A DNA stretch of 64,000 nt, from assembly GCA_000004985.1 (NCBI GenBank), contig GG738845.1. One strand, written 5' to 3'. The stretch is from Naegleria gruberi. Lineage: Eukaryota. This document shows, in pieces, positions 7,737-35,529 of the stretch. Within the stretch, counting starts at the first letter, position 1. The number at the start of each line of letters is the position of its first letter. The position numbers and the translations under genes were made by a program. Under the pieces are notes generated by a model. That model had not been told where the DNA came from and did not search any database. It saw nothing but the letters and a program-made list of their open reading frames with translations.

Positions 7737-8453
7737 ATGAGCGATCTTGCTACATCGGAATTTGCATCAACAAGCACAAACCCTTCTATTACATCAACCA
7801 ACTCCAAAGCCAAAAGAAAGAGAAAAGAAACTGTTGATACTAGTGCAGCAACAAATATTTCGGAAATTATTCATGAACCAACAAAGGAAAAACCAAAAAA
7901 GAAAGTGAAAAAAGCAACTACTCCCAAAGTTTACAGCAATATATTACCACACGATTTCTATGACAAGTTAAATATTTATGGACAACATGTATTTATTTTA
8001 ACAGAATTGGAAAGAGAAAGTAATTATTTAAATAGCCTACACAAAAAATTATCAGAACATATTCACAAATTACAAATTGAGGAATCTGTGATGAAGAAAC
8101 ACTTTGATGCCTTATATCGTCATCAACAGGAAGCAGAAGAGCAAAAACAACAACGAGAAGAATATGAAAGCGAAAATGAGGCAGAAGAAGAGGAAGAAAT
8201 AGGATATAATTATTATGATTTTCCATATTCTATTCAAGATTTTACAAAATCATGTTATGGTCAACCTGAAAATACAATGTCCACCGAACAAATTAGATAT
8301 GCACCAGATTTAAATCAACAACAACGAGAGGATGTTGTAAGAAATATGAAATCTTCGACATCAACAAGCAACTCAGAATACGAAGAAGCAAACGTTCCAG
8401 AAGTCTTTTCAAAGGAGTTTTTAGCATTAAGGAACTATGTACAAAATCATTAA
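7737..8453 (+). CDS. Hypothetical acidic coiled-coil protein (basic NLS-like N-terminus, E/Q-rich centre)
   Basis: 238-aa ORF with an ATG start. KAKRKRKE is an NLS-like motif, followed by a EEQKQQREEYESENEAEEEEE tract. I recognise no family. Confidence 0.4.
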   Translation: MSDLATSEFASTSTNPSITSTNSKAKRKRKETVDTSAATNISEIIHEPTKEKPKKKVKKATTPKVYSNILPHDFYDKLNIYGQHVFILTELERESNYLNSLHKKLSEHIHKLQIEESVMKKHFDALYRHQQEAEEQKQQREEYESENEAEEEEEIGYNYYDFPYSIQDFTKSCYGQPENTMSTEQIRYAPDLNQQQREDVVRNMKSSTSTSNSEYEEANVPEVFSKEFLALRNYVQNH

Positions 8454-16061: not shown

Positions 16062-19000
16062 TTGCGAAGATTGTTACTGTTACACAATACCGCCATAACA
16101 ACAACATTAAAAAAAACAAATCTCTCCAAAGAGCTTAAAATGCTTGATGAGGTTTCTTCATCAGAAACCTACCAACCACTTCATGTCATGACGAGATTAA
16201 GGCCATCAACAATACCCTCCAACTCCCATACATCATCTAATAATCCATCATCACCATTAACTCCTTCTACTAGTAATCCTCTTGAAACGGGTGCACGACG
16301 TCCAACGTTTTTTGGCGATATTGCTAAAAGTGCCCTTTCAACTCCAACAACCACACAAGCTGGAAAATTAAACATTATTGGAGCTCTCCTTTCTCATGAT
16401 ACATTGGATAGTGATAACAATTCAGATTCTTCGTCCCGATCTTCATCACCCATTCCTGTCAGATTAAGGAAGGATAATGCAGCTAATTTAACTAGGAGAA
16501 GAAGGAAAACTGATGCTCCACTTCCAGTTCCCATTTCATCTTCTCCACCAACAGCGTCCTCTCCCACAACAATTAATACATCAACAAATAATGAGGCATT
16601 TGGCTCCAACCTCCTTAATTTTGCAGAGTCACAAGAGGAAACCAAACGTCTAGTTGCATCCTTACAAAGAACTGAGGATATATCAATAACTTTGGATGAT
16701 TCGGCAAGTACTGTAAATGTGAATAATATGATTTATGTAAAAATGGATTATGCAAAAACTCAAGTAGAGGAAATTATGAACAAGTTCTCAAATGCCAAGC
16801 AAGAATTCAAAGAAAAGACTAAGAAACTTCAAAAACATTTCGAAAAACAAGACAATGAAAAGATGGCCAAGATTCAGAGTTTCATGGAGGAATTCAATGA
16901 CAAATATATATCCATGCAAAAAAGATACCAAGAAACACTCTTAAAAAAGTATAAGGAAAAAATTGAAGAATTGGGTGGAAAAGTTAAAGCATATGCATCT
17001 GAAAAGGATGATCTAAGAGACCGACTTGTGTCAGAAACAACAAAGTATTACGAGGACATGAGAGTACACGTTTCTAGTTTTGAGAAAATTATTTCTGGAA
17101 TAGAGGCAAAGGAGAAGAAGCGATCAGATGAATACATTTTAGAACAACGTGCAGTTTGCAACAAACAAATTGAAGGAGCTCAAGCACAATTGACAAAATC
17201 CATAAGTGTACAAAAAAAGTTATTCTTTGGATTAGTCAATTATATAAGGAAAAAAGAGAAGGAATGTTTGAAACTAGGAAATGATTTGGATGAAAGCAAA
17301 TTAAATGCTGCAAATCTAAAACAACAATGTGAAAAACTACAATCATGTATCAAAGAAGGAGAAAATAGAGAAAAAGACTATCAAGTTATTGTAAATAAGC
17401 AAAAAGACAAAATAATTGAATTGGGAAAACGATTGGATTTTTATATATCCAAAACATTTTCCGATTCAAATGTAAATACTGACTTAACAATACGAGATTT
17501 GGAAAATCAAGAAATGAAATCATCAAACAAAACGAAAGAAAATGAAAAAATCAGGAAACATGCTAAAAATCAAGCAGATACTATTAAGGGACTAGAGAAT
17601 CAGAAAACCTCTTTGGAAGATAACATCCAAAAATTATCGAGTGCTATTTCTAATTTCCAACAAGAAATTGAATCTTTAAAGATGAAAATAGAAAAGGAAA
17701 TGGAAGCCAATAATTCTTTGCAGGAAACTAGAAAGCAATTAGAGGTAAAGATAACGGAGCTAACGAGAAAGGACGCTTTAACGAAGGATATTTTGAAAAA
17801 TCAAAAACAAAAAATATCAACCTTGGAGACTCAGTTAACTTCTTCTGTACCAGCTCAAGATGCAAATAATATTTTGGACAGTTTAAGGAAAGATGTGCAA
17901 ACTGAAAGAGAGGAAAAACAACACCTTCAAACTTTGATTATTGAGAAGGAATCACTTATTAGTTCGATAGAAACAAAATATGGCGATGCGGTAAGCAAGT
18001 ACAGAGATTTGGATCTAAAATTCCATAAGATGGAGGAGGAATTCATGAGTCAAGTAAAGAACCTCAAGGAAGAAGCCAAAAACAAGCTTGGAAGTTTGAT
18101 TCCTACCATTATAGAAAAAGTTGTTCCTCCTGAACAAAAAATTACATTGGCTCATAGTTCACAAACAGAGGAAGTTTTTATTGAGCAGAAAGAGTTAGAT
18201 GATTTTAAAAGCAAAGTACAGCTTTTGGAAAAGGATTTACAAGACTCAAACCTTCAAATTACTGACCTCAATAATAATATTGCTCAAATAACGAGAGAGT
18301 TTGCAATGAAAGAATCAACATTAATTTTCGAGGCAAAGGAGAGGGAAAACCAACTAACTTTGGAATACAAAGAAAGAGAATCAAAATTAATTTCGAATTT
18401 TAAGGAAAATGAACACAGAATTAAAACTCAATTCAGCGAAAAGGAAATGGTTCTAATTTCCCAGTTTACTGAAAGGGAGCAAAAACTAAATTCAGAATTT
18501 AAGGAAACTCAACAAAGAATGCAGAGTGAATTTGAGGAATCCCAACAAAGAATACAGGCCTCGTTTAATGACACTCAACAAAGAATGCAGGACTCATTTA
18601 ATGAAAGAGAAACTAAACTAGAAACAGAATTTACACAAGCAAAAACGCTTTTGGAAGGTGATAATGAATTGTTAAAAAATGAAGTGGCAAGTTTAAACAA
18701 CTCTATTTGCGAAAAAACAGCTCTAATATCACAATTAGAGAGACAACTTTCACTTTCACAAACAGAGCTGGATGGATATCAAAAGTTTGGCAGTGAAACC
18801 ATAGATTTTGAAAAAAAGGAGATGGTTATTAGGCATTTCAATTCACTAAAGAGAGAGTTAGAAATACTGAAAGCAGAAATAGAATTGAGGAAATCTGTCG
18901 AAGAGGAATTAAGAGAGGAGATTGAACGGTTGAAAAAGGATGTAGGTTTAACAAACGGAAAATACAGAAATCTGCTCAATCAATCCCATTTTAGGCGCTT

Positions 19001-19484
19001 GGAGAATAATACAGGTACAGTCAGTTTTGAGGAAGAGATGGACCGTCTAACTGTTGAAAACAAGCAAATAACTGAGACAAACAAACTTCTTGAACTTCAA
19101 ATAGCAAGTTTCTCCAAGGACGTTTATTTTGAAGAGAGCCAAAAGTTTCAACAATTATATTTGGCTGAGAGAGAAAAAACGAACAAACTGTCAGCTCAAT
19201 GTAAACAGTTTGTACTAAAAATTACAGAGCAAGAGCAATACATAGAAAGTTTGAGTTCAAAATGTGAAAGAGCTTTTGATGACATTGCAAGAGAGAGACA
19301 ACGAACTGAAGTAGCCCTCAGATTAGTAAAAAAAGGACATAAGGAAAAGGAGGAATTTTTGATTGAAATAGAAAACCTGAAACATCAGTTCGAAGTTGCT
19401 CTTGATGTTTTAAGGAGAAATCAATTTGAACAAGAGTTTTATAGAATGCTAAAGAAGAGCACTTTAATTAAAGGAATCTTGTAA
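16062..19484 (+). CDS. Large coiled-coil protein (Ser/Thr/Pro-rich N-terminal region, about 900-residue heptad-repeat rod), function unknown
   Basis: 1140-aa ORF. The true ATG may be MLDEVSSS at about 16140. The long K/E/Q/L-rich heptad region contains a roughly 11-residue tandem module ([57 protein letters not shown]...). Confidence 0.5.
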
Positions 19485-27527: not shown

Positions 27528-28397
27528 ATGTTCAAACGTTTTGTAAATAATCAGGCCCTACTCAATGGTCTGAAGCACATTAAACGATCCGACAATAATG
27601 AACAACAACAAATTGTTGTTGCCGGAAACCAAACAACTGGTCTTATTGTGCCAATAGGTGCAACATCAAACAAAATTGGTATTGAATTGCAAGAGTTTTG
27701 CAACACACTAGTGCCAACAGATTCGGCAATATTCAAAATTGCTAAACAGATTTGTGCAGAACAGGGAAATAGAATCAAGGAAATTGCTCACGAAGTGTTG
27801 AAAGATTCCGGTTTAGGTACTAATATCAACAACAGTAATATCAATAGTAGTAACACTAAGAATAGTAGTAATGTCAAAATATCGTCTACTCCTTCTTTAA
27901 CTCACAATAGTCAGCCTACTGTCATCATCTCCGAACAACAAGTTGAAACCAAAACTCCCACACAACCAATTGTAAAAAAGCATGGCAAATTCTATGGAAC
28001 CAACAAAATATTCCTATTAGATGAAGAAGAAATTGTAAATATTAGCAGTATTCCAACCTCAAACACCACTCCTATCATTGGTAACTTTGAAACAAATGAT
28101 GGTGACATACATTCTACCCAATCTTCGCAATCTTTGAATCTGGACATTGTAAAACGACTTCTCTCGGATATATTTGGTAAATTGAAATACTTGGCAATGG
28201 TACTTTTGAATAGTTTGTTTGGAAATAGACAAAATGTTCAACCTGATGCAGCAACAACGCAAGTAGCTGCACAATCATTGGTGTTGGTGATATCATTCAT
28301 GATTTACAATATTGTAGCAGAAAGTTCTTCTGCCGATTTGCATCAAGATATCTTACTTGTTTTCCAAGAGTACCTGTCCAATCACTTGAACAATTAA
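27528..28397 (+). CDS. Hypothetical protein (Asn/Ser-rich middle, hydrophobic C-terminal region)
   Basis: 289-aa ORF with an ATG start. I recognise no family. Confidence 0.4.
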   Translation: MFKRFVNNQALLNGLKHIKRSDNNEQQQIVVAGNQTTGLIVPIGATSNKIGIELQEFCNTLVPTDSAIFKIAKQICAEQGNRIKEIAHEVLKDSGLGTNINNSNINSSNTKNSSNVKISSTPSLTHNSQPTVIISEQQVETKTPTQPIVKKHGKFYGTNKIFLLDEEEIVNISSIPTSNTTPIIGNFETNDGDIHSTQSSQSLNLDIVKRLLSDIFGKLKYLAMVLLNSLFGNRQNVQPDAATTQVAAQSLVLVISFMIYNIVAESSSADLHQDILLVFQEYLSNHLNN

Positions 28398-28523: not shown

Positions 28524-29647
28524 CTAAGTCAAATCAGTTGGATCAAAAGCATCATCGGCATTATCTTCTTCAACAGGTTGCTGCTCATCGCCTGAATCTG
28601 AGTCTTCTTCTGAATTTTCATCATGACTCAAAAGACTCTTCTTTTTAGCATCTACTGGTTTTGGTTGTCTTGGTTTTCTGGTTTGGGAAGATAATTCAAT
28701 TCCTCCAGAGAGTGTTAATTTTGACACCATCTTGTAAACTGTTGCTTCCAAGTATTTGAGGTGATGATTTTGCTTAGCAGTTTCCAAAGCAGTACTATCC
28801 ATCCTCTCGAATGCATCCAAAAAGTCTTCACTGATATCGCTCTCCTTTGATGTTCCATAAGAATTGTGTTCTGATTGGAACTTTTTATGATACTCATCAG
28901 CTCTTACGTAATCGTCCATTTTAAGGCAAATGAGGATAATTGATGTACAGGTTTTGTTGACATTATCATGTTGTGTGAGGGCCTTGTATCCAACAATCAT
29001 TTCCAAACAATTTGAAATTGCCTCTTCCCATTGAGAATTTCTGATCAAAAAGTCATTGTAGCCTCTATACGTCGACATGGCATTATGATATGTTCCTCCC
29101 ATAGATAAGCTTTCAACAGCACTCTTGTAAAGCTCGATAGCTTGTGGGATATTTCCGTTATCTGCTAACATTTTAGCTGCCTTGGTGAGGGCCTCTCCAG
29201 CTCTATTACCCTTACCATCATCCAAATAAGAATTTGATGCTTTAGTGTACAATTCAACTGCCATACCGAAATCTTTAGTGTCTTTACAAATATTTGCTGC
29301 ATTCTCAAAACCTTGTCCTGATTTGTAGTATCTGTTTTAGATTTTGGTCGATTAATAGCAGTCAAATTACAACATCAATAAGAATGAATAACTTACATTC
29401 CACACTTGTAGAAACAATCACCACAATTTGTATAACAAGAAATGGCTTTTGCTGGCTGTTTCAAAGCCTTGAAAATTGCTGCTGCTTTTTCATAGGCAGC
29501 ACCTGCGGAATCATAATCAGGTTTCCATCTAGTCAAACTTCTAGAGGCACTGCAATTGCAATAATTATCCAACTGTTAATATAGGAAAATAACTTACTAT
29601 TTTTTAGCTTCCTTTTCCAACTCTAAGGCTTCCTTCTCCTTACTCAT
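28524..29647 (-). CDS. Gamma-soluble NSF attachment protein (gamma-SNAP). Three exons: 29598..29647, 29397..29549 and 28524..29331
   Basis: The joined N-terminus MSKEKEALELEKEAKKYASRSLTRWKPDYDSAGAAYEKAAAIFKALKQ matches gamma-SNAP (...LAKAEKYLKTGFLKWKPDYDSAASEYGKAAVAFKNAKQ). The introns are GTAAGT...TTGCAG (48 nt) and GTAAGT...AAACAG (65 nt), both in phase. The downstream part is TPR-like helical repeats with an acidic tail. Confidence 0.8.
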
Positions 29648-30517
29648 TTCTAATTGGGATTTTAAAGAATTTCTCGCAACACGTTTTCTAAGGTGAGGTA
29701 ATTTTTTAAACTCCTTTCTAGAGAGGTTATTGTTATCTACCCCTACGGAATGTTGTATTTTTTTACTCTCATCCTCACTGCTATTGTAGGGTGAGGAACT
29801 TGGACTGTTTCTTTCGTCTGCATGTTTCCTTGTTGGAGAGGAGCCGTTTAGCTTATGCTCGTCATCACTAGAAATATTAAGGTTCTGTTTTTCTTCATCT
29901 GAAGATTGGTCAGAAGAACTAGAGGATTCAAAATGGAGAAGACTAATTGTGTCTGAAATTGGTTTGGATTTGTTGGTAGCACCACTAAAAGGACAAAAAG
30001 AGAGCGACGATGATGGTGTAGAATCAATAGATGAATCAACCTCACTGGATAATAATTGTCTCCTCTTTTCTTCGTCATGCTGCTTCTCCTTCATTGCATT
30101 ATAGACATTGAGTGTTTTTGCCAACTCTGTCGCATCCATGGAATTTGAACGTTTCCTAGTGTATTGATGAATGTTTGAAATGTACTTGTTGGTTGGAGAG
30201 AATGAAGAGGAGAGCTTTGGTACTGGTGTTGATGTTTTCAAACTACTGGTTCTCGAACTTCTCCTAGGGGTTTGTAAATAGGGATGAAGTGGTGTTGGTT
30301 CAATATTAACAATATCCTCATCCTCATGTTCTTCCGTCTTTTTAGATGATGGTAACTGTTTACTAGATTTTGGTGACGTTGAAGGAGGAGTGAATATTTT
30401 GCTTGTTTTGAGGGATGAAGGCTTTTCCTTACTTTTGTTGGAGAGCTCATCCTCACAAGATGTATTAAGCGAGGAGGAGGACTTTGTACTTCTCAACGAA
30501 AAGAAGGGCATTACCAA
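29597..30517 (-). CDS. Ser-rich low-complexity ORF of 306 aa, immediately upstream of and in frame with the gamma-SNAP start; either a separate gene or an N-terminal extension
   Basis: The ORF is continuous from ATG 30517 through ...LKSQLEMSKEKEALELEKEAKK. Its last 17 codons are the gamma-SNAP first exon, and its TAG overlaps the GTAAGT donor of gamma-SNAP intron 1. Confidence 0.35.
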   Translation of the reverse strand: MVMPFFSLRSTKSSSSLNTSCEDELSNKSKEKPSSLKTSKIFTPPSTSPKSSKQLPSSKKTEEHEDEDIVNIEPTPLHPYLQTPRRSSRTSSLKTSTPVPKLSSSFSPTNKYISNIHQYTRKRSNSMDATELAKTLNVYNAMKEKQHDEEKRRQLLSSEVDSSIDSTPSSSLSFCPFSGATNKSKPISDTISLLHFESSSSSDQSSDEEKQNLNISSDDEHKLNGSSPTRKHADERNSPSSSPYNSSEDESKKIQHSVGVDNNNLSRKEFKKLPHLRKRVARNSLKSQLEMSKEKEALELEKEAKK

Positions 30518-30856
30518 ATACTAGAACTAGAGGTTTTTCTTTTGTGCTGAGGCGAAAATAACAACAACACAAAACATGCAAACAATGGCTGCGAGGATTG
30601 GGAATAAGGAGTTTCGCTTCCTTATCCACAATCCAAAGATGCTTTTGTTGGTGGAGGGTTCATTTAACTTTTTTGCTGTAATGTTTTCCATTCATGGTTT
30701 GTTGTAGCTAAAATAAGTGAGGTTTGGAAGGATCTAAAAGCTATTTTTTACTCCTTTTTGGCTTAACAAAATAGAGAAATACATTATGTGAAATATTAGA
30801 AATGTATTAATAATTATGAAATATCATGAAGTAGTACGGGTAGAAAATGAAATTTA

Positions 30857-32152
30857 TTGAGGCTTATTTTGATCATGACTTTGATTCACACAAAGTTAAC
30901 GTTAAAAAAAAGAACCAAAGTTGTTTTCCGAACATCAGAATCCTTTCCACAACAAATACAACTCCCATCTTCATCACGCTTGTTGTTGTTCGGAATGAGA
31001 TTTACAAAGAGAGACCTCTCGAGACTCCTCTTCAAGAATGTTTCTCCTCTCAAATTACTGCTGCATGGTATTTGTATTGGAATTTGTTTATTGCCTGCTC
31101 TTGCAACGTTGATTGTAGGCTTGATTGTTTTTGTTACTTCTCCGAGTGATAATATTACAACTCCAACACAATGTACAATTTTATCGAAACTACAATGTGT
31201 CACCACCTCGGCTACATCCACAACAACACCACAACAAACAAGTGCAACATTCACCAGTTCTTCGTCTAATTCTGTTCGTCATCATCAATCAACAATAGTA
31301 AATTCTCAGAAACTCATCAATGAGAAGAGTTCTCCTATTGAATGTACTTATACAGTCTCTTTCACCATTATTCCTTCACAAAGTGGACAACAAATCATTC
31401 ATGCAAGTACGATTCCCTTCCCTAAAGTATCAACGCACTCCAATTACACACTCAATCAACAGGTTTCTTGCTTTTATGATGAGAGTAATCCAAAGAATGT
31501 TTCATTTGACAAGACCAATCTTGTACATTTTTACACCATTGTTGGTTTGGGTGTGATTGGTGTGGGTGGTTGTTTGCTTTTTCTTGTCCTTGTTTCCATG
31601 ACCATCTTCTTTACCAATTTGTGTAGATTCTGTGTTGGACATTCACAAATGAGGAGTCAAAGAAAGAGGAGACTGAGAAGGAATTTATTGAGTATTCTAA
31701 TTCCGAGATCATCTAACAAGAGTTCTGCCATCAATACTGAGGATGACTATGAAGACGATTATCAAACAGATTCGAGTGTAGAGAGGGCATTGGATTCCTC
31801 TTCCACCACGAGAGGAATTTTACAATATGGAGCTATGGGAAATAGGGATGAAGGAAATGGATATTATTATTCAAATGCCAATAAGAAACATGCTAGATTC
31901 AATGTTGCAAGTTCTGGTTCTTCAAATGGAAGTGGTATTAGTGGCAATAATTCATTCCTTGTTCATGTGACAAGTAGTACAAGAGTGAAGAAGAACAAGA
32001 GTAGTGTTTTAATTGATGAACGCCACTTTTATCAACATAGTGATGAAGAGTCTGAGCATGATGAAAAAACTGATTCATCTGTTGAAGACATTCCAGTGGA
32101 AATAATAGCTTCCTCTCTTAACAGGGCATCTTATCCAGCCCACAATTTGTAA
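30857..32152 (+). CDS. Hypothetical membrane protein (two TM helices flanking a Ser/Thr-rich luminal or extracellular domain, basic cytosolic tail)
   Basis: 431-aa ORF. The TM helices are at LHGICIGICLLPALATLIVGLIVFV and FYTIVGLGVIGVGGCLLFLVLVSMTIFF. The true start may be the internal Met MRFTKRDL. Confidence 0.4.
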   Translation: MRLILIMTLIHTKLTLKKRTKVVFRTSESFPQQIQLPSSSRLLLFGMRFTKRDLSRLLFKNVSPLKLLLHGICIGICLLPALATLIVGLIVFVTSPSDNITTPTQCTILSKLQCVTTSATSTTTPQQTSATFTSSSSNSVRHHQSTIVNSQKLINEKSSPIECTYTVSFTIIPSQSGQQIIHASTIPFPKVSTHSNYTLNQQVSCFYDESNPKNVSFDKTNLVHFYTIVGLGVIGVGGCLLFLVLVSMTIFFTNLCRFCVGHSQMRSQRKRRLRRNLLSILIPRSSNKSSAINTEDDYEDDYQTDSSVERALDSSSTTRGILQYGAMGNRDEGNGYYYSNANKKHARFNVASSGSSNGSGISGNNSFLVHVTSSTRVKKNKSSVLIDERHFYQHSDEESEHDEKTDSSVEDIPVEIIASSLNRASYPAHNL

Positions 32153-33129: not shown

Positions 33130-35529
33130 ATGAAGAACACAAGCAGTGGAAGAAACCTGTGTTCGTTGTTGATGAAGAAAAACCATCATCGGGTTACTGC
33201 TTCCAGACTTTCAGGAACCATTTCATCTCTTCACAACAATATATCAACATGGAAAAGTGTTCCTTCCTTCATTAATAACTCTATCACCATGGCTAGTAAT
33301 AATAATAATTGCAAATTCTATAGTATCATCTCCAATAATAATTTACAATCCGACAAGGAAGACAGGGATGATGATTTTATGGATGACAATTTAATTGAAG
33401 GATTTATTGTTGAATATTTTGATAAGAGTAGTAAAACCATCAAATTAGGCTTGTTGGATGAACATGAATCTGTTATTTATCAAGAGAATTTTACAAATGT
33501 TAAAAACAAGGATGTTGTCATTATAGAAAAGTGGTCAAACATGTTGACTACTTTGAATGATTTACGAGAAATTAGAGAAAAGGCTAATTATATGGTATTG
33601 GATGAAACCTATCAAGCAGATTTTGAACTAAGATTGGAAAATCTATTAATTGAAGGATTTACATCTGGAAAGAAATTTTCATCATCAACATTATCGAATG
33701 AATTATTTGAAATTCAAAGTATGATTACCAGATATATTGCTTTTTATTTATTTGAAAATTCTGGATGTTTCAAATATGATACAAGATCCAACAAGTATAT
33801 TGTTATTGAAACAGATTCTAGTCAGATTAGAGTTAAAGATTTTATAAGGAGAGCTAAGAAGCGTATTCAGGAAATTAATGACTTGAAACAAAAGAATGGT
33901 CAAATAGAAAACAATTCACAGCTTCTCAATGCGAATCTTCATACTAAATGGGATCCAATTATTGATGTGCCACTTTTGAGAAAAATGGAGTTTTTCATCC
34001 TTTCCAACTTTTTGAACTCTAAAAACAAGACTATCATTGAATCAATTTTAGAATCTTTCAGATATCCAAAGAATAGACGTGGAGCTGCCCAATTTCTACA
34101 TGCTGTTGGTCATATGCATTTTGAAAAGTCTTCAAATCTCATGGAAGAGAGTATGGACCCAGATTTTGAAAATGTAAAAAATCTCCCATCGATAGTCAAG
34201 CCATTCCCAAACCAAGTTGAAAGTGCTTCTCAAATCATGCTCAAACAAGTTACTTCATTGATTGAAAAGGAAAAGGAAAATATTTCGAGAAGAGACTTAA
34301 GAAAATTGAAATGTATTGCTATTGACGATATTTCTACACAGGCATACGATGATGCTGTCAGTATTGAAAAGACTGTGAATGGATATAAGATTTATATTCA
34401 TGTTTGTGATGTTTCCTCATTTATTACTAAGAATGATGCCCTTGAAACAGAATCTCGTTCCAGAGTTAAAACAATCTATGGAAAGAATGGTGTCCGTTTA
34501 ATGTTGCATCCTTGTGCTATCAGAGCTATCACGCTTTCACCAGAGAGAGAAAACCTAGGGTTCACTCTTGAACTCAGTCTTATAAAGAGTGGCTCAGAAC
34601 TTAAATTGGACAAGTATGAATTTTACAAATCCATTCTTCCAAAGGTTGAAATATTCACTTATAACACTGTAGACTCACTCTTCAATCAATTTGTAAAGAA
34701 AAAGATGGGCAACAAGTCAACTGATATGGATCAATCTCATCAATTGCTGATAGAAATGCTTCATATTTCAATCAATGTAGATAAGAGTTTGAATTTGGGG
34801 TTAATTTCCAAAACAAAATCAACTCCTGCTCACGATACTGTTGCAATTATTATGAGTATTGCCAATAGTGTCTTGGCTGCTCACATCAAGCAAGTAGATA
34901 TACAAAATCTATTCCCACAATCCAATTCATACTATAGATTTACTTCTCCTATGAGAAGGTATGCTGATTTGGTTACCCACATCCAATATAACTCATTACT
35001 GAACAATAGCAAGGAGCCTATCTATTCAGATAAGGAAATTAAGAATATTTGTACAGAAATTCAATCATTTGAAAAGGATATTTTGGAAACTCAACTAATG
35101 ATGGATAAGAAAAAGAGAGATTTGGCAACATCAAAAAATAAGAATCAATCGGTCAATAATAGCAATCAAAAGCAATCCAATAAGGTGATTGGTAAGGTTG
35201 TTAAAAAGAGAAAGGGTATGAGCTCTGTTTACATCCCATCTATGGATAAAACAATTTCTCTTCACTTGGTTGAATTTGACGAAGTGAAAATGATAGAGCT
35301 ATTGTCTGGCATTCTTCCCGAAACTGAAAAATCATCAATGGATATGCTTGGATGGCCTGCCCTTACTAAGAAAATGAAGGAAAATAGATCTCCAAATGAT
35401 ATTATGGAAGGTTCCAAAGTTGTCTTGAACATCAAACACATTGAATATTACGAAAACGATACTTACAAACCAAAGGTTATTGTTGCTGAACATTGTTTTG
35501 AAGAAAAGGTTGACAATTATACCATTTAA
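33130..35529 (+). CDS. RNB-domain 3'-5' exoribonuclease (RNase II/R family), possibly mitochondrial
   Basis: 799-aa ORF. RNB motif I is AIDDISTQAYDDAVSIE (DxxxxxDxDDA). Motif IV is FTSPMRRYADLVTH. The N-terminus is basic and Ser-rich like a mitochondrial presequence. Confidence 0.7.
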   Translation: MKNTSSGRNLCSLLMKKNHHRVTASRLSGTISSLHNNISTWKSVPSFINNSITMASNNNNCKFYSIISNNNLQSDKEDRDDDFMDDNLIEGFIVEYFDKSSKTIKLGLLDEHESVIYQENFTNVKNKDVVIIEKWSNMLTTLNDLREIREKANYMVLDETYQADFELRLENLLIEGFTSGKKFSSSTLSNELFEIQSMITRYIAFYLFENSGCFKYDTRSNKYIVIETDSSQIRVKDFIRRAKKRIQEINDLKQKNGQIENNSQLLNANLHTKWDPIIDVPLLRKMEFFILSNFLNSKNKTIIESILESFRYPKNRRGAAQFLHAVGHMHFEKSSNLMEESMDPDFENVKNLPSIVKPFPNQVESASQIMLKQVTSLIEKEKENISRRDLRKLKCIAIDDISTQAYDDAVSIEKTVNGYKIYIHVCDVSSFITKNDALETESRSRVKTIYGKNGVRLMLHPCAIRAITLSPERENLGFTLELSLIKSGSELKLDKYEFYKSILPKVEIFTYNTVDSLFNQFVKKKMGNKSTDMDQSHQLLIEMLHISINVDKSLNLGLISKTKSTPAHDTVAIIMSIANSVLAAHIKQVDIQNLFPQSNSYYRFTSPMRRYADLVTHIQYNSLLNNSKEPIYSDKEIKNICTEIQSFEKDILETQLMMDKKKRDLATSKNKNQSVNNSNQKQSNKVIGKVVKKRKGMSSVYIPSMDKTISLHLVEFDEVKMIELLSGILPETEKSSMDMLGWPALTKKMKENRSPNDIMEGSKVVLNIKHIEYYENDTYKPKVIVAEHCFEEKVDNYTI

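What the first reader, a model, noticed from the sequence alone, without database searches (positions are those of the whole stretch)
28524..30517. A 306-aa Ser-rich ORF reads in frame straight into the gamma-SNAP start codon, with no intergenic space
Gamma-SNAP starts at MSKEKEALELEKEAKK, based on a strong match to the gamma-SNAP N-terminus after two in-phase introns. These codons are also the last 17 codons of a continuous upstream ORF starting at ATG 30517, and no stop codon lies between them. So one of three things holds. Gamma-SNAP here may carry a long disordered Ser-rich N-terminal extension, which would be unusual for a SNAP. The upstream gene may end through an unseen splice. Or the gamma-SNAP promoter lies inside coding sequence. 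The upstream TAG also overlaps the gamma-SNAP intron-1 donor.
Basis: seen in the sequence. Interest (0 to 1): 0.55.

Follow-up and report, generated by a model that had tools for sequence, protein, structure and literature searches.

The report
Gamma-SNAP gene with N-terminal extension
In the amoeba Naegleria gruberi, the gene for the vesicle-fusion recycling factor gamma-SNAP most likely also encodes a conserved, roughly 290-residue disordered serine-rich N-terminal extension that the public annotation misses; this is a lineage-specific variant of an ordinary gene, not a new kind of system.

Summary
On the minus strand, an open frame runs from ATG 30511 (30517 is TTG) with no stop into the gamma-SNAP start ATG 29647. 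It ends only at the TAG that overlaps the intron-1 donor.

The window is Naegleria gruberi. The public model, XP_002683523, is 5'-partial and starts inside exon 2.

The upstream ORF is real coding sequence:
- Chance of an open frame this long is about 7e-11.
- Codon usage is gene-like only in this frame.
- Against a sister genome (L003), dN/dS is 0.25 at dS of about 1, and at least 1.2 in the shifted frames.

The same in-frame, stop-free junction is kept in L003 and in a much more distant relative, L006. N. lovaniensis and Willaertia magna have a stand-alone gamma-SNAP starting at the equivalent Met.

Best reading: one three-exon gene encoding a 624-aa gamma-SNAP with a mostly disordered Ser-rich extension carrying conserved short motifs. 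A basic helix in the extension runs on into SNAP helix 1.

An unseen splice, a chance ORF and an assembly artefact are rejected. An extra internal start site giving the canonical 336-aa protein is not excluded. No transcript data were available.

Interest is modest: a new variant of a known kind, plus annotation corrections.

The parts
30534..30567 (-). Conserved non-coding block (TTGTTGTTATTTTCGCCTCAGCACAAAAGAAAAA), 23-56 nt upstream of ATG 30511. Candidate core promoter or 5'UTR of the long transcript (inferred).
   Evidence: It is the only significant local match (29/34 identical, E 2.7e-6) between the otherwise unalignable upstream regions of the window and L003.
30521..30523 (-). In-frame TAG that closes the frame 12 nt upstream of the start codon. 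A second in-frame TAG lies at 30527-30529.
   Evidence: L003 and L006 also have in-frame stops, 30 and 63 nt upstream of their start codons.
30509..30511 (-). Start codon of the long ORF (MPFFSLRS...).
   Evidence: Sequence conservation with L003 begins abruptly at this ATG. The same MPFF(S/T)LR N-terminus is seen in P0009 and P0011, and L006 starts with MP.
29648..30511 (-). N-terminal extension: 288 codons, 22.6% Ser, 32.2 kDa, pI 9.2, mostly disordered.
   Evidence: dN/dS is 0.25 against L003 at dS 1.0, and at least 1.2 in the shifted frames. The codon log-likelihood is +0.22 bits/codon in this frame only. There is no Pfam hit. AF2 gives pLDDT below 50 for half the residues.
30239..30313 (-). 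Conserved motif block IVNIEPTPLHPYLQTPRRSSRTSSL (residues 67-91).
   Evidence: EPTPLHP..L..P.RR.SRTSSL is invariant in the window, P0009 and P0011. It is recognisable in L006 as ERTPLHTILKAPLRRRKT.
30050..30217 (-). Conserved block KLSSSFSPTNK...QY.RKRSNSMD.TELA followed by a predicted helix (residues 99-154).
   Evidence: Invariant columns are listed. pN is 0.04-0.08 in this stretch. AF2 predicts a helix at 127-157 with pLDDT of about 83.
29648..29725 (-). Basic junction block LSRKEFKKLPHLRKRVARNSLKSQLE (residues 263-288), immediately upstream of the SNAP Met.
   Evidence: Only 3 non-synonymous and 5 synonymous differences against L003 over codons 261-288 (zero-based 260-288). The peptide is kept in L006 (KEFKKSLHLVRKIGNKALKTKLE) although synonymous sites are saturated. 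AF2 predicts a helix at 272-302 that runs through Met289.
29645..29647 (-). Internal ATG (Met289), equivalent to the canonical or ancestral gamma-SNAP start codon.
   Evidence: It aligns with the start region of W. magna and N. lovaniensis gamma-SNAP and with residue ~4 of PDB 2IFU. The Met is retained in the window, L003 and L006.
29598..30511 (-). Exon 1 of the proposed 624-aa gene: the extension plus the 16 canonical SNAP codons plus 2 bases of a split codon.
29550..29597 (-). Intron 1 (48 nt, GTAAGT...CAG, phase 2).
   Evidence: Splicing restores KKY/ASRSLTRWKPDYDSA. An intron at the same position and phase is present in L003, L006, N. lovaniensis and W. magna. Identity to L003 is only 60%.
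29397..29549 (-). Exon 2.
   Evidence: It matches XP_002683523 from residue SLTRW... onward.
29332..29396 (-). Intron 2 (65 nt, GTAAGT...CAG, phase 2).
   Evidence: Identity to L003 is 54%.
28524..29331 (-). Exon 3, ending in the TAG stop at 28526-28524.
   Evidence: The translation is identical to XP_002683523.

Best explanation
This is one three-exon gene of Naegleria gruberi on the minus strand: exon 1 at 30511-29598, exon 2 at 29549-29397 and exon 3 at 29331-28524.

Its full-length product is a 624-aa (69.8 kDa) gamma-SNAP. The canonical SNAP domain is preceded by a 288-residue extension that is serine-rich, basic and mostly disordered.

The extension carries a few conserved short motifs and two helices. 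The second helix is polybasic (KEFKKLPHLRKRVARNSLKSQLE) and runs directly into SNAP helix 1.

Shown here:
- The extension is translated in the SNAP frame, because it is under purifying selection in that frame.
- The stop-free in-frame junction is conserved in three genomes.
- N. lovaniensis and W. magna lack the extension.

Inferred:
- Transcription starts upstream of 30511, near the conserved block 30567-30534.
- Intron 1 is spliced as it must be for any SNAP product, so ribosomes starting at 30511 make the fusion.

Speculative mechanism (own knowledge of 20S-complex architecture; not tested here): the N-terminal end of a SNAP faces the membrane-proximal end of the SNARE bundle. A polybasic helix there could add membrane or partner binding. 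The Ser-rich region has basophilic (RKRSNS, RVARNS) and acidic (SDEE, SEDES) sites and could act as a phospho-regulated tether or targeting region.
For: Organism and public model:
- The exon-3 ORF clusters with XP_002683523.1, 'predicted protein, partial [Naegleria gruberi]'. That model starts inside exon 2, so its 5' end was never resolved.

The ORF is coding:
- P(open by chance) is about 7e-11, and 0 of 20000 shuffles stayed open.
- The codon log-likelihood is +0.22 bits/codon. The 21 long ORFs of the window used as the reference set range from 0.16 to 0.51. The other five frames are negative.
- Against L003, dN/dS is 0.25 for the extension and 0.07 for SNAP, with the same dS of about 1.0. 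Shifted frames give 1.2 and 2.3.
- The last 28 codons before the SNAP Met differ almost only synonymously, for example CGT to AGA, both Arg.

The junction is conserved:
- The window, L003 (91% identity over the exon-3 ORF) and L006 (about 60% SNAP identity, as far from N. gruberi as N. lovaniensis is) all read from an MP... start through ...KEFKK..HL....LK..LE-MSKE...EKEAKK into the phase-2 donor without a stop.
- Conservation with L003 starts sharply at ATG 30511 and is continuous across the internal ATG, with no intergenic-like gap. Introns and flanks are only 48-60% identical.

Other points:
- 13 ATGs lie between the two starts, so leaky scanning to Met289 is unlikely.
- AF2 predicts one continuous helix, residues 272-302, across the junction.
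- Only one gamma-SNAP locus from N. gruberi was retrieved.
Against: - No transcript, 5'-end or peptide evidence could be obtained. No spliced N. gruberi product, long or short, exists in the searched protein collections.
- N. lovaniensis and W. magna make a stand-alone gamma-SNAP of about 335 aa starting at the equivalent Met. The extension is therefore not needed for basic SNAP function.
- All three extension-bearing genomes retain that Met. The lowest synonymous divergence of the whole gene lies at codons 260-294 around it (pS 0.26 against a mean of 0.55). This would also fit an internal start site for a canonical short isoform.
- The extension has no homologue outside a handful of N. gruberi-like sequences: 3 hits among 1.84 billion representative proteins. 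Its function is therefore purely inferred.
Confidence: 0.72

Rival explanations
1. Dual-output locus. A compact internal promoter or start site embedded in the last ~100 nt of the extension's coding sequence produces the canonical 336-aa gamma-SNAP as the main SNAP. The upstream start gives the 624-aa fusion as a second isoform, or a 304-aa disordered protein when intron 1 is retained.
For: - Met289 sits exactly at the ancestral start and is retained in all three extension-bearing genomes.
- TTAGAAATGAGTAAG is identical in the window, L003 and L006, although synonymous sites are otherwise saturated against L006.
- The gene-wide minimum of synonymous divergence lies at codons 260-294.
- Naegleria promoters can be tiny. 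Only 28 bp separate the divergent start codons in N. lovaniensis.
Against: - The synonymous dip is not significant once the ~22 independent windows are allowed for.
- The conserved codons are the common AT-rich ones.
- The TATA-like TTTAAAAAATTA of the window and L003 is not kept in L006, whereas the peptide FKK is. Conservation here is explained by the protein.
- There are no transcript data either way.
Confidence: 0.22
2. There are two independent genes. The Ser-rich ORF is a separate gene whose true 3' end is made by an unseen splice or an early poly(A) site, and it only appears to run into gamma-SNAP.
For: The extension has no detectable relation to SNAP and no homologue in the Naegleria/Willaertia species that lack it. 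This could fit a once-separate gene.
Against: - The most strongly conserved peptide of the ORF is its last 26 codons, directly abutting the SNAP Met, and selection on the frame continues across it.
- No stop, no frame change and no spacer appear in any of three genomes despite many indels elsewhere in the extension.
- The only downstream stop is the one created by the SNAP intron donor.
Confidence: 0.04
3. The ORF is not a real feature: a chance open frame, or an assembly or sequencing error that removed a stop codon or intergenic spacer.
For: None beyond the absence of a public gene model for the ORF.
Against: - The chance probability is about 7e-11, and there is purifying selection.
- Two independent assemblies of other genomes (L003 from Logan SRR25266755; L006 from ENA ERZ27315067) show the same junction.
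- An independent 982-bp contig, L007, is 99.6% identical to the window across the junction.
Confidence: 0.01

Closest known systems
Canonical gamma-SNAP (NAPG; solved structure PDB 2IFU, zebrafish)
   Same: The C-terminal 336 residues are a full-length gamma-SNAP. The Pfam SNAP domain is present. The best PDB match is 2IFU at E 8.6e-25, aligned from residue 5 to 278. The W/FKPDYDSA motif lies about 25 residues after the internal Met.
   Different: Canonical SNAPs are single-domain proteins of roughly 290-340 aa. Homologues found here are 308-344 aa. In this gene the reading frame continues 288 codons upstream of the canonical Met.
Gamma-SNAP orthologues of Naegleria lovaniensis (C9374_005670), N. 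fowleri and Willaertia magna (ABK040_015140)
   Same: They share 53-60% identity, the same two phase-2 intron positions, the same exon-1 peptide (KEKEAL.LEKE.KK) and the same C-terminal FDP.DLT.
   Different: N. lovaniensis and W. magna start at the Met equivalent to Met289. N. lovaniensis has a divergent gene's ATG only 28 bp upstream. W. magna has an in-frame TGA immediately upstream. Neither has room for an extension, and neither locus contains a homologue of it. The N. fowleri genome could not be inspected.
Lineage-specific disordered N-terminal extensions on conserved housekeeping proteins (a general phenomenon in protists; own knowledge)
   Same: The extension is low-complexity, Ser-rich and fast-evolving (dN/dS 0.25, many in-frame indels), with islands of conserved short linear motifs. 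It is attached to a slowly evolving folded domain.
   Different: Here the old start codon is retained as an internal Met in every carrier. It remains open whether the canonical protein is still made as well.
Alpha-SNAP N-terminal membrane-attachment loop (own knowledge of the SNAP/NSF literature; a functional analogy only)
   Same: It is an element at the N-terminal, membrane-facing end of a SNAP that could contact the bilayer. Here a polybasic helix sits directly N-terminal to helix 1.
   Different: There is no sequence relationship. The alpha-SNAP element is a short hydrophobic loop inside the domain, not an appended basic helix plus a disordered region. The analogy is untested.

Membership tests
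SNAP family (Pfam PF14938) | A match to the SNAP profile above the curated gathering score, covering most of the domain. | tested here: met
   70.2 bits against a cut-off of 25, E 2.6e-19, profile positions 3-256 of 282, residues 295-541 of the 624-aa product.
Gamma-SNAP subfamily (as opposed to alpha/beta-SNAP) | Closer to gamma-SNAP than to alpha-SNAP/Sec17. | tested here: met
   PDB gamma-SNAP 2IFU scores E 8.6e-25, against Sec17 and alpha-SNAP at E of about 5e-4. UniRef names the N. lovaniensis orthologue 'Gamma-soluble NSF attachment protein'.
Gamma-SNAP subfamily | Canonical single-domain architecture, with the protein starting about 25 residues before the (W/F)KPDYDSA motif. | tested here: not met
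   A Met exists at that position (29647). However, the frame is open and under selection for 288 further codons upstream in the window, L003 and L006. The orthologues in N. lovaniensis and W. magna do meet this feature.
Gamma-SNAP subfamily | Binds NSF and SNARE complexes and supports SNARE-complex disassembly. | not testable with these tools
   This is a biochemical property. Only domain-level homology is available.
Independent upstream gene (two-gene model) | Its own stop codon and 3' end, separate from the downstream gene. | tested here: not met
   There is no stop between 30511 and the intron-1 donor in any of three genomes. The only stop is TAG/TAA inside the donor consensus.
Protein-coding sequence (for the extension) | Purifying selection and gene-like codon usage in the proposed frame only. 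| tested here: met
   dN/dS is 0.25 in frame and at least 1.2 in the shifted frames. The codon log-likelihood is +0.22 in frame and negative in the other five frames.

The most novel reading that the evidence does not exclude
The locus is a conserved dual-use arrangement. The ancestral gamma-SNAP start codon and a minimal promoter survive inside the coding sequence of a newly acquired, possibly de novo, 288-codon extension. One gene then yields a canonical 37.6 kDa gamma-SNAP and a 69.8 kDa membrane- or phospho-regulated isoform. On intron-1 retention it would also yield a free 304-aa disordered protein that ends with SNAP helix 1.
Probability: 0.25. Interest if true: 0.5.

Novelty: new variant of a known kind. 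Interest (0 to 1): 0.33.

Why it matters
SNAPs are among the most architecturally uniform components of the eukaryotic membrane-fusion machinery. A gamma-SNAP nearly doubled in size by a conserved disordered extension would be a lineage-specific handle on how SNARE recycling is targeted or regulated in a free-living heterolobosean.

It is also a dated example of a conserved protein gaining a long N-terminal extension while keeping its old start codon.

Practically, three public gene models need attention:
- N. gruberi XP_002683523 is 5'-partial and misses at least exon 1, and probably 288 further codons.
- The N. lovaniensis model C9374_005670 uses an ATG inside intron 1 and misses the true first exon.
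- The N. fowleri model's N-terminus looks similarly mispredicted, but its genomic DNA could not be inspected.

The result is of modest general interest. Disordered extensions are common in protists, and no new mechanism is demonstrated.

Tried and rejected
- Exact look-ups of candidate products found nothing except the exon-3 ORF. I tried 336-aa SNAP, 624-aa fusion, the 304- and 306-aa unspliced ORFs, and ORFs starting at internal Mets. So there is no public model or transcript-derived protein to settle the 5' end.
- The first homology search used the whole 624-aa fusion and was swamped by low-complexity words. It returned one hit and missed even the identical exon-3 cluster. I repeated it with SNAP alone.
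- A profile of the central extension block retrieved only P0011 and missed the known positive P0009. The absence of an annotated N. gruberi protein for the ORF therefore remains unproven.
- N. fowleri (P0003), XP_002683523 (P0002) and P0011 have no contig on record. N. fowleri genomic context could not be inspected.
- Two metagenome scans, one with the SNAP exon-3 profile and one with the extension profile, found no further loci.
Only the 304-aa ORF was modelled, with a 4-sequence alignment, so low pLDDT is weak evidence of disorder.
- A neighbour-joining tree of the SNAP domain could not place L006: 85 of 500 bootstraps grouped it with the N. gruberi clade. Gain versus loss of the extension is therefore unresolved.
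- I considered the small ORF MENITAKK... (30691-30527) as a further upstream exon. It is in the same frame and separated by two TAGs. I rejected it because it is not conserved in L003 and no intron could remove the stops.
- I considered TAG as a sense codon. I rejected it because the SNAP gene ends in TAG and the intron model is conserved in five genomes.
- Literature searches for Naegleria gamma-SNAP, N-terminally extended gamma-SNAPs and Naegleria UTR or start-site data found nothing usable.
Full report
**Observation.**
- On the minus strand the frame containing the gamma-SNAP start is open from 30517 to the TAG at 29599-29597.
- Position 30517 is TTG, not ATG. The first ATG is 30511 (MPFFSLRS...), 12 nt downstream of an in-frame TAG.
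- Splicing GTAAGT...CAG introns at 29597-29550 and 29396-29332, both phase 2, gives a 336-aa protein from ATG 29647 or a 624-aa protein from ATG 30511.
- The TAG overlapping the donor is a by-product of a phase-2 GTAAGT donor. L003, L006 and W. magna show the same in-frame TAA or TAG.
- With a stop frequency of 0.074 per codon, a 304-codon open frame has a chance probability of about 7e-11. None of 20000 shuffles stayed open.

**Identity.**
- The exon-3 ORF is in one 90% cluster with XP_002683523.1/EFC50779.1, 'predicted protein, partial [Naegleria gruberi]'.
- That 316-aa model begins at SLTRWKPDY inside exon 2, so the public 5' end is unresolved.
- Pfam SNAP (PF14938) matches residues 295-541 of the long product at 70 bits.
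- The best solved structure is gamma-SNAP 2IFU (E 8.6e-25), aligned from residue 5 of the short form to residue 8 of the chain. Alpha-SNAP and Sec17 score only E of about 5e-4.
- Met 29647 therefore sits exactly where a canonical gamma-SNAP starts.

**Is the upstream ORF coding?** Yes.
- Codon usage scored against 21 long ORFs of the window gives +0.22 bits/codon in the ORF's frame. That is within the 0.16-0.51 range of those genes. The other five frames are negative.
- A 10-kb contig from a close relative, L003 (Logan SRR25266755; 91% identity over the exon-3 ORF), carries the same locus.
- Against L003 the extension has dN/dS 0.25 and the SNAP part 0.07. Synonymous divergence is the same in both (dS about 1.0). 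The two shifted frames give 1.2 and 2.3.
- Conservation with L003 starts sharply at ATG 30511.
- The upstream 480 bp is unalignable except for one 34-nt block at 30567-30534. Introns and the 3' flank are only 48-60% identical.

**Is it part of gamma-SNAP?** The stop-free, in-frame junction is present in three genomes:
- the window;
- L003 (...KEFKKLPHLRKRVARNSLKTQLE-MSKEKEAIELEKEAKK-F|gtaagt);
- L006, an ENA metagenome contig whose SNAP is about 60% identical, as distant from N. gruberi as N. lovaniensis is (...KEFKKSLHLVRKIGNKALKTKLE-MSKEIEAAELEKEAKK-L|gtaagt).

Further points:
- The extension has many in-frame indels between these genomes, but never a stop or frameshift.
- Its best-conserved peptide is the 26 residues that abut the SNAP Met. 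Against L003 the differences there are almost all synonymous, for example CGT to AGA. Against L006 the peptide is kept although synonymous sites are saturated.
- Because the frame is under selection right up to the SNAP Met, ribosomes translating it must read into SNAP exon 1.
- Any transcript crossing the exon then carries the intron-1 splice signals that every SNAP mRNA uses. The fusion protein is therefore the expected product.
- Thirteen ATGs lie between the two starts, which makes leaky scanning to Met289 unlikely.

**Distribution.**
- N. lovaniensis: the true exon 1 (MSNDKEKEALALEKEGKKL, L004 7909-7964) lies only 28 bp from the ATG of a divergent RCC1-like gene. The deposited model instead starts at an ATG inside intron 1.
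- Willaertia magna: the gene starts MSDNVSKKEKEAL..., with an in-frame TGA immediately upstream and a divergent gene 334 bp away.
- Neither has the extension or any tblastn trace of it in 17 kb.
- An exhaustive phmmer scan of 1.84 billion representative proteins found only three relatives. All are N. gruberi-like: P0009 (the L003 ORF), P0010 (a fragment from contig L007) and P0011 (a fourth taxon with the same MPFF start and motifs).
- The extension is therefore lineage-restricted. A single-gene tree could not place L006, so gain versus loss is unresolved.

**Anatomy of the extension.**
- It is 288 residues, 22.6% Ser, pI 9.2, with 75% polar or charged residues and no Pfam domain.
- AF2 on a shallow 4-sequence alignment predicts mostly pLDDT below 50, with two helices at 127-157 and 272-302. 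The second runs straight through Met289 into SNAP helix 1.
- Conserved islands are EPTPLHP.L..P.RR.SRTSSL, KLSSSFSPTNK...QY.RKRSNSMD.TELA, LLHFE, SDQSSDEEKQN, SEDESKKI and the basic junction block.

**Proposed function (inference from 20S-complex architecture; not tested).** This is an appended, probably phospho-regulated tether or targeting region. Its terminal polybasic helix sits at the membrane-facing end of the SNAP.

**What remains open.**
- All three carriers keep the ancestral Met, and 15 nt around it are identical.
- The gene-wide minimum of synonymous divergence lies at codons 260-294: pS 0.26 against a mean of 0.55. This is about 2.2 SD below the mean and is not significant after allowing for about 22 independent windows.
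- This is compatible with an internal start site that still produces the canonical 336-aa protein. Given 28-bp promoter regions in this genus, I cannot exclude it.
- No transcript-derived sequence of this gene exists in the collections searched, and further loci were not found.

**Verdict.**
- The unseen-splice reading is rejected.
- The internal-promoter reading survives only as a possible addition.
- This is a new variant of a known kind, plus annotation corrections. Interest is modest.

Noticed in passing
L004 7881-8040 (N. lovaniensis PYSW02000025.1): The deposited gamma-SNAP model C9374_005670 (P0005, MSNPNGIYDCFHSS...) starts at an ATG inside intron 1. The true exon 1 is at 7909-7964 (MSNDKEKEALALEKEGKKL). 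Its ATG lies only 28 bp from the ATG of the divergent RCC1-like gene, which implies an extremely compact bidirectional promoter. The N. fowleri model (P0003, MEEYEISFPICYGMNSS...) has a similarly aberrant N-terminus.
   Followed up: partly
window 30527-30691 (-): A 54-codon ORF (MENITAKK..., with one hydrophobic segment) lies in the same frame as the extension, separated from it by TAG-TTC-TAG. It is not conserved in L003 and has a weak codon score (+0.09), so it is probably non-coding 5' region.
   Followed up: yes
window 30534-30567 (-): A 34-nt block (TTGTTGTTATTTT...CACAAAAGAAAAA) is the only significantly conserved non-coding element between the window and L003 in the 480-bp divergent intergenic region. 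It is a candidate core promoter or 5'UTR element.
   Followed up: partly
window 29630-29730 (-): The lowest synonymous divergence of the whole 624-codon gene against L003 (pS 0.26-0.28, mean 0.55) lies at codons 260-294, around the internal Met. TTAGAAATGAGTAAG is identical in the window, L003 and L006. This is not statistically significant.
   Followed up: partly
window 30857-32152 (+): The divergent neighbour is a Ser/Thr-rich predicted membrane protein (likely start about 30992, MRFTKRDL...). Its only Pfam hit is a sub-threshold New_glue match. Its 5' part is conserved in L003 (153-458, minus strand).
   Followed up: partly
window 27528-28397 (+): The convergent neighbour is a 289-aa ORF with no Pfam hit. 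Its stop lies only 126 bp from the gamma-SNAP stop, so the 3'UTRs must be very short or overlapping. The gene is conserved in L003 (3194-4093) and L001.
   Followed up: no
window-wide, e.g. 7737-8453(+)/8450-9307(-) and 16062-19484(+)/19464-20213(-): Gene packing is very tight. Several convergent long ORFs overlap at their 3' ends by 4-21 bp. Several same-strand ORF pairs are only about 35 bp apart and may be exons split by short introns.
   Followed up: no
L007 (Logan ERR1078381), also L001 and L002: A run labelled as a metagenome (PRJEB11402) contains contigs 99.6-100% identical to this N. gruberi locus. L007 is rearranged or chimeric upstream of its position 457, which produces the odd N-terminus of P0010.
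   Followed up: partly
window 34705-35124 (+), inside ORF 33130-35529 (RNB-domain protein): There is a weak tblastn similarity (26% over 158 aa, E 0.009) to residues 140-296 of the extension. It is most likely shared low-complexity composition.
   Followed up: no
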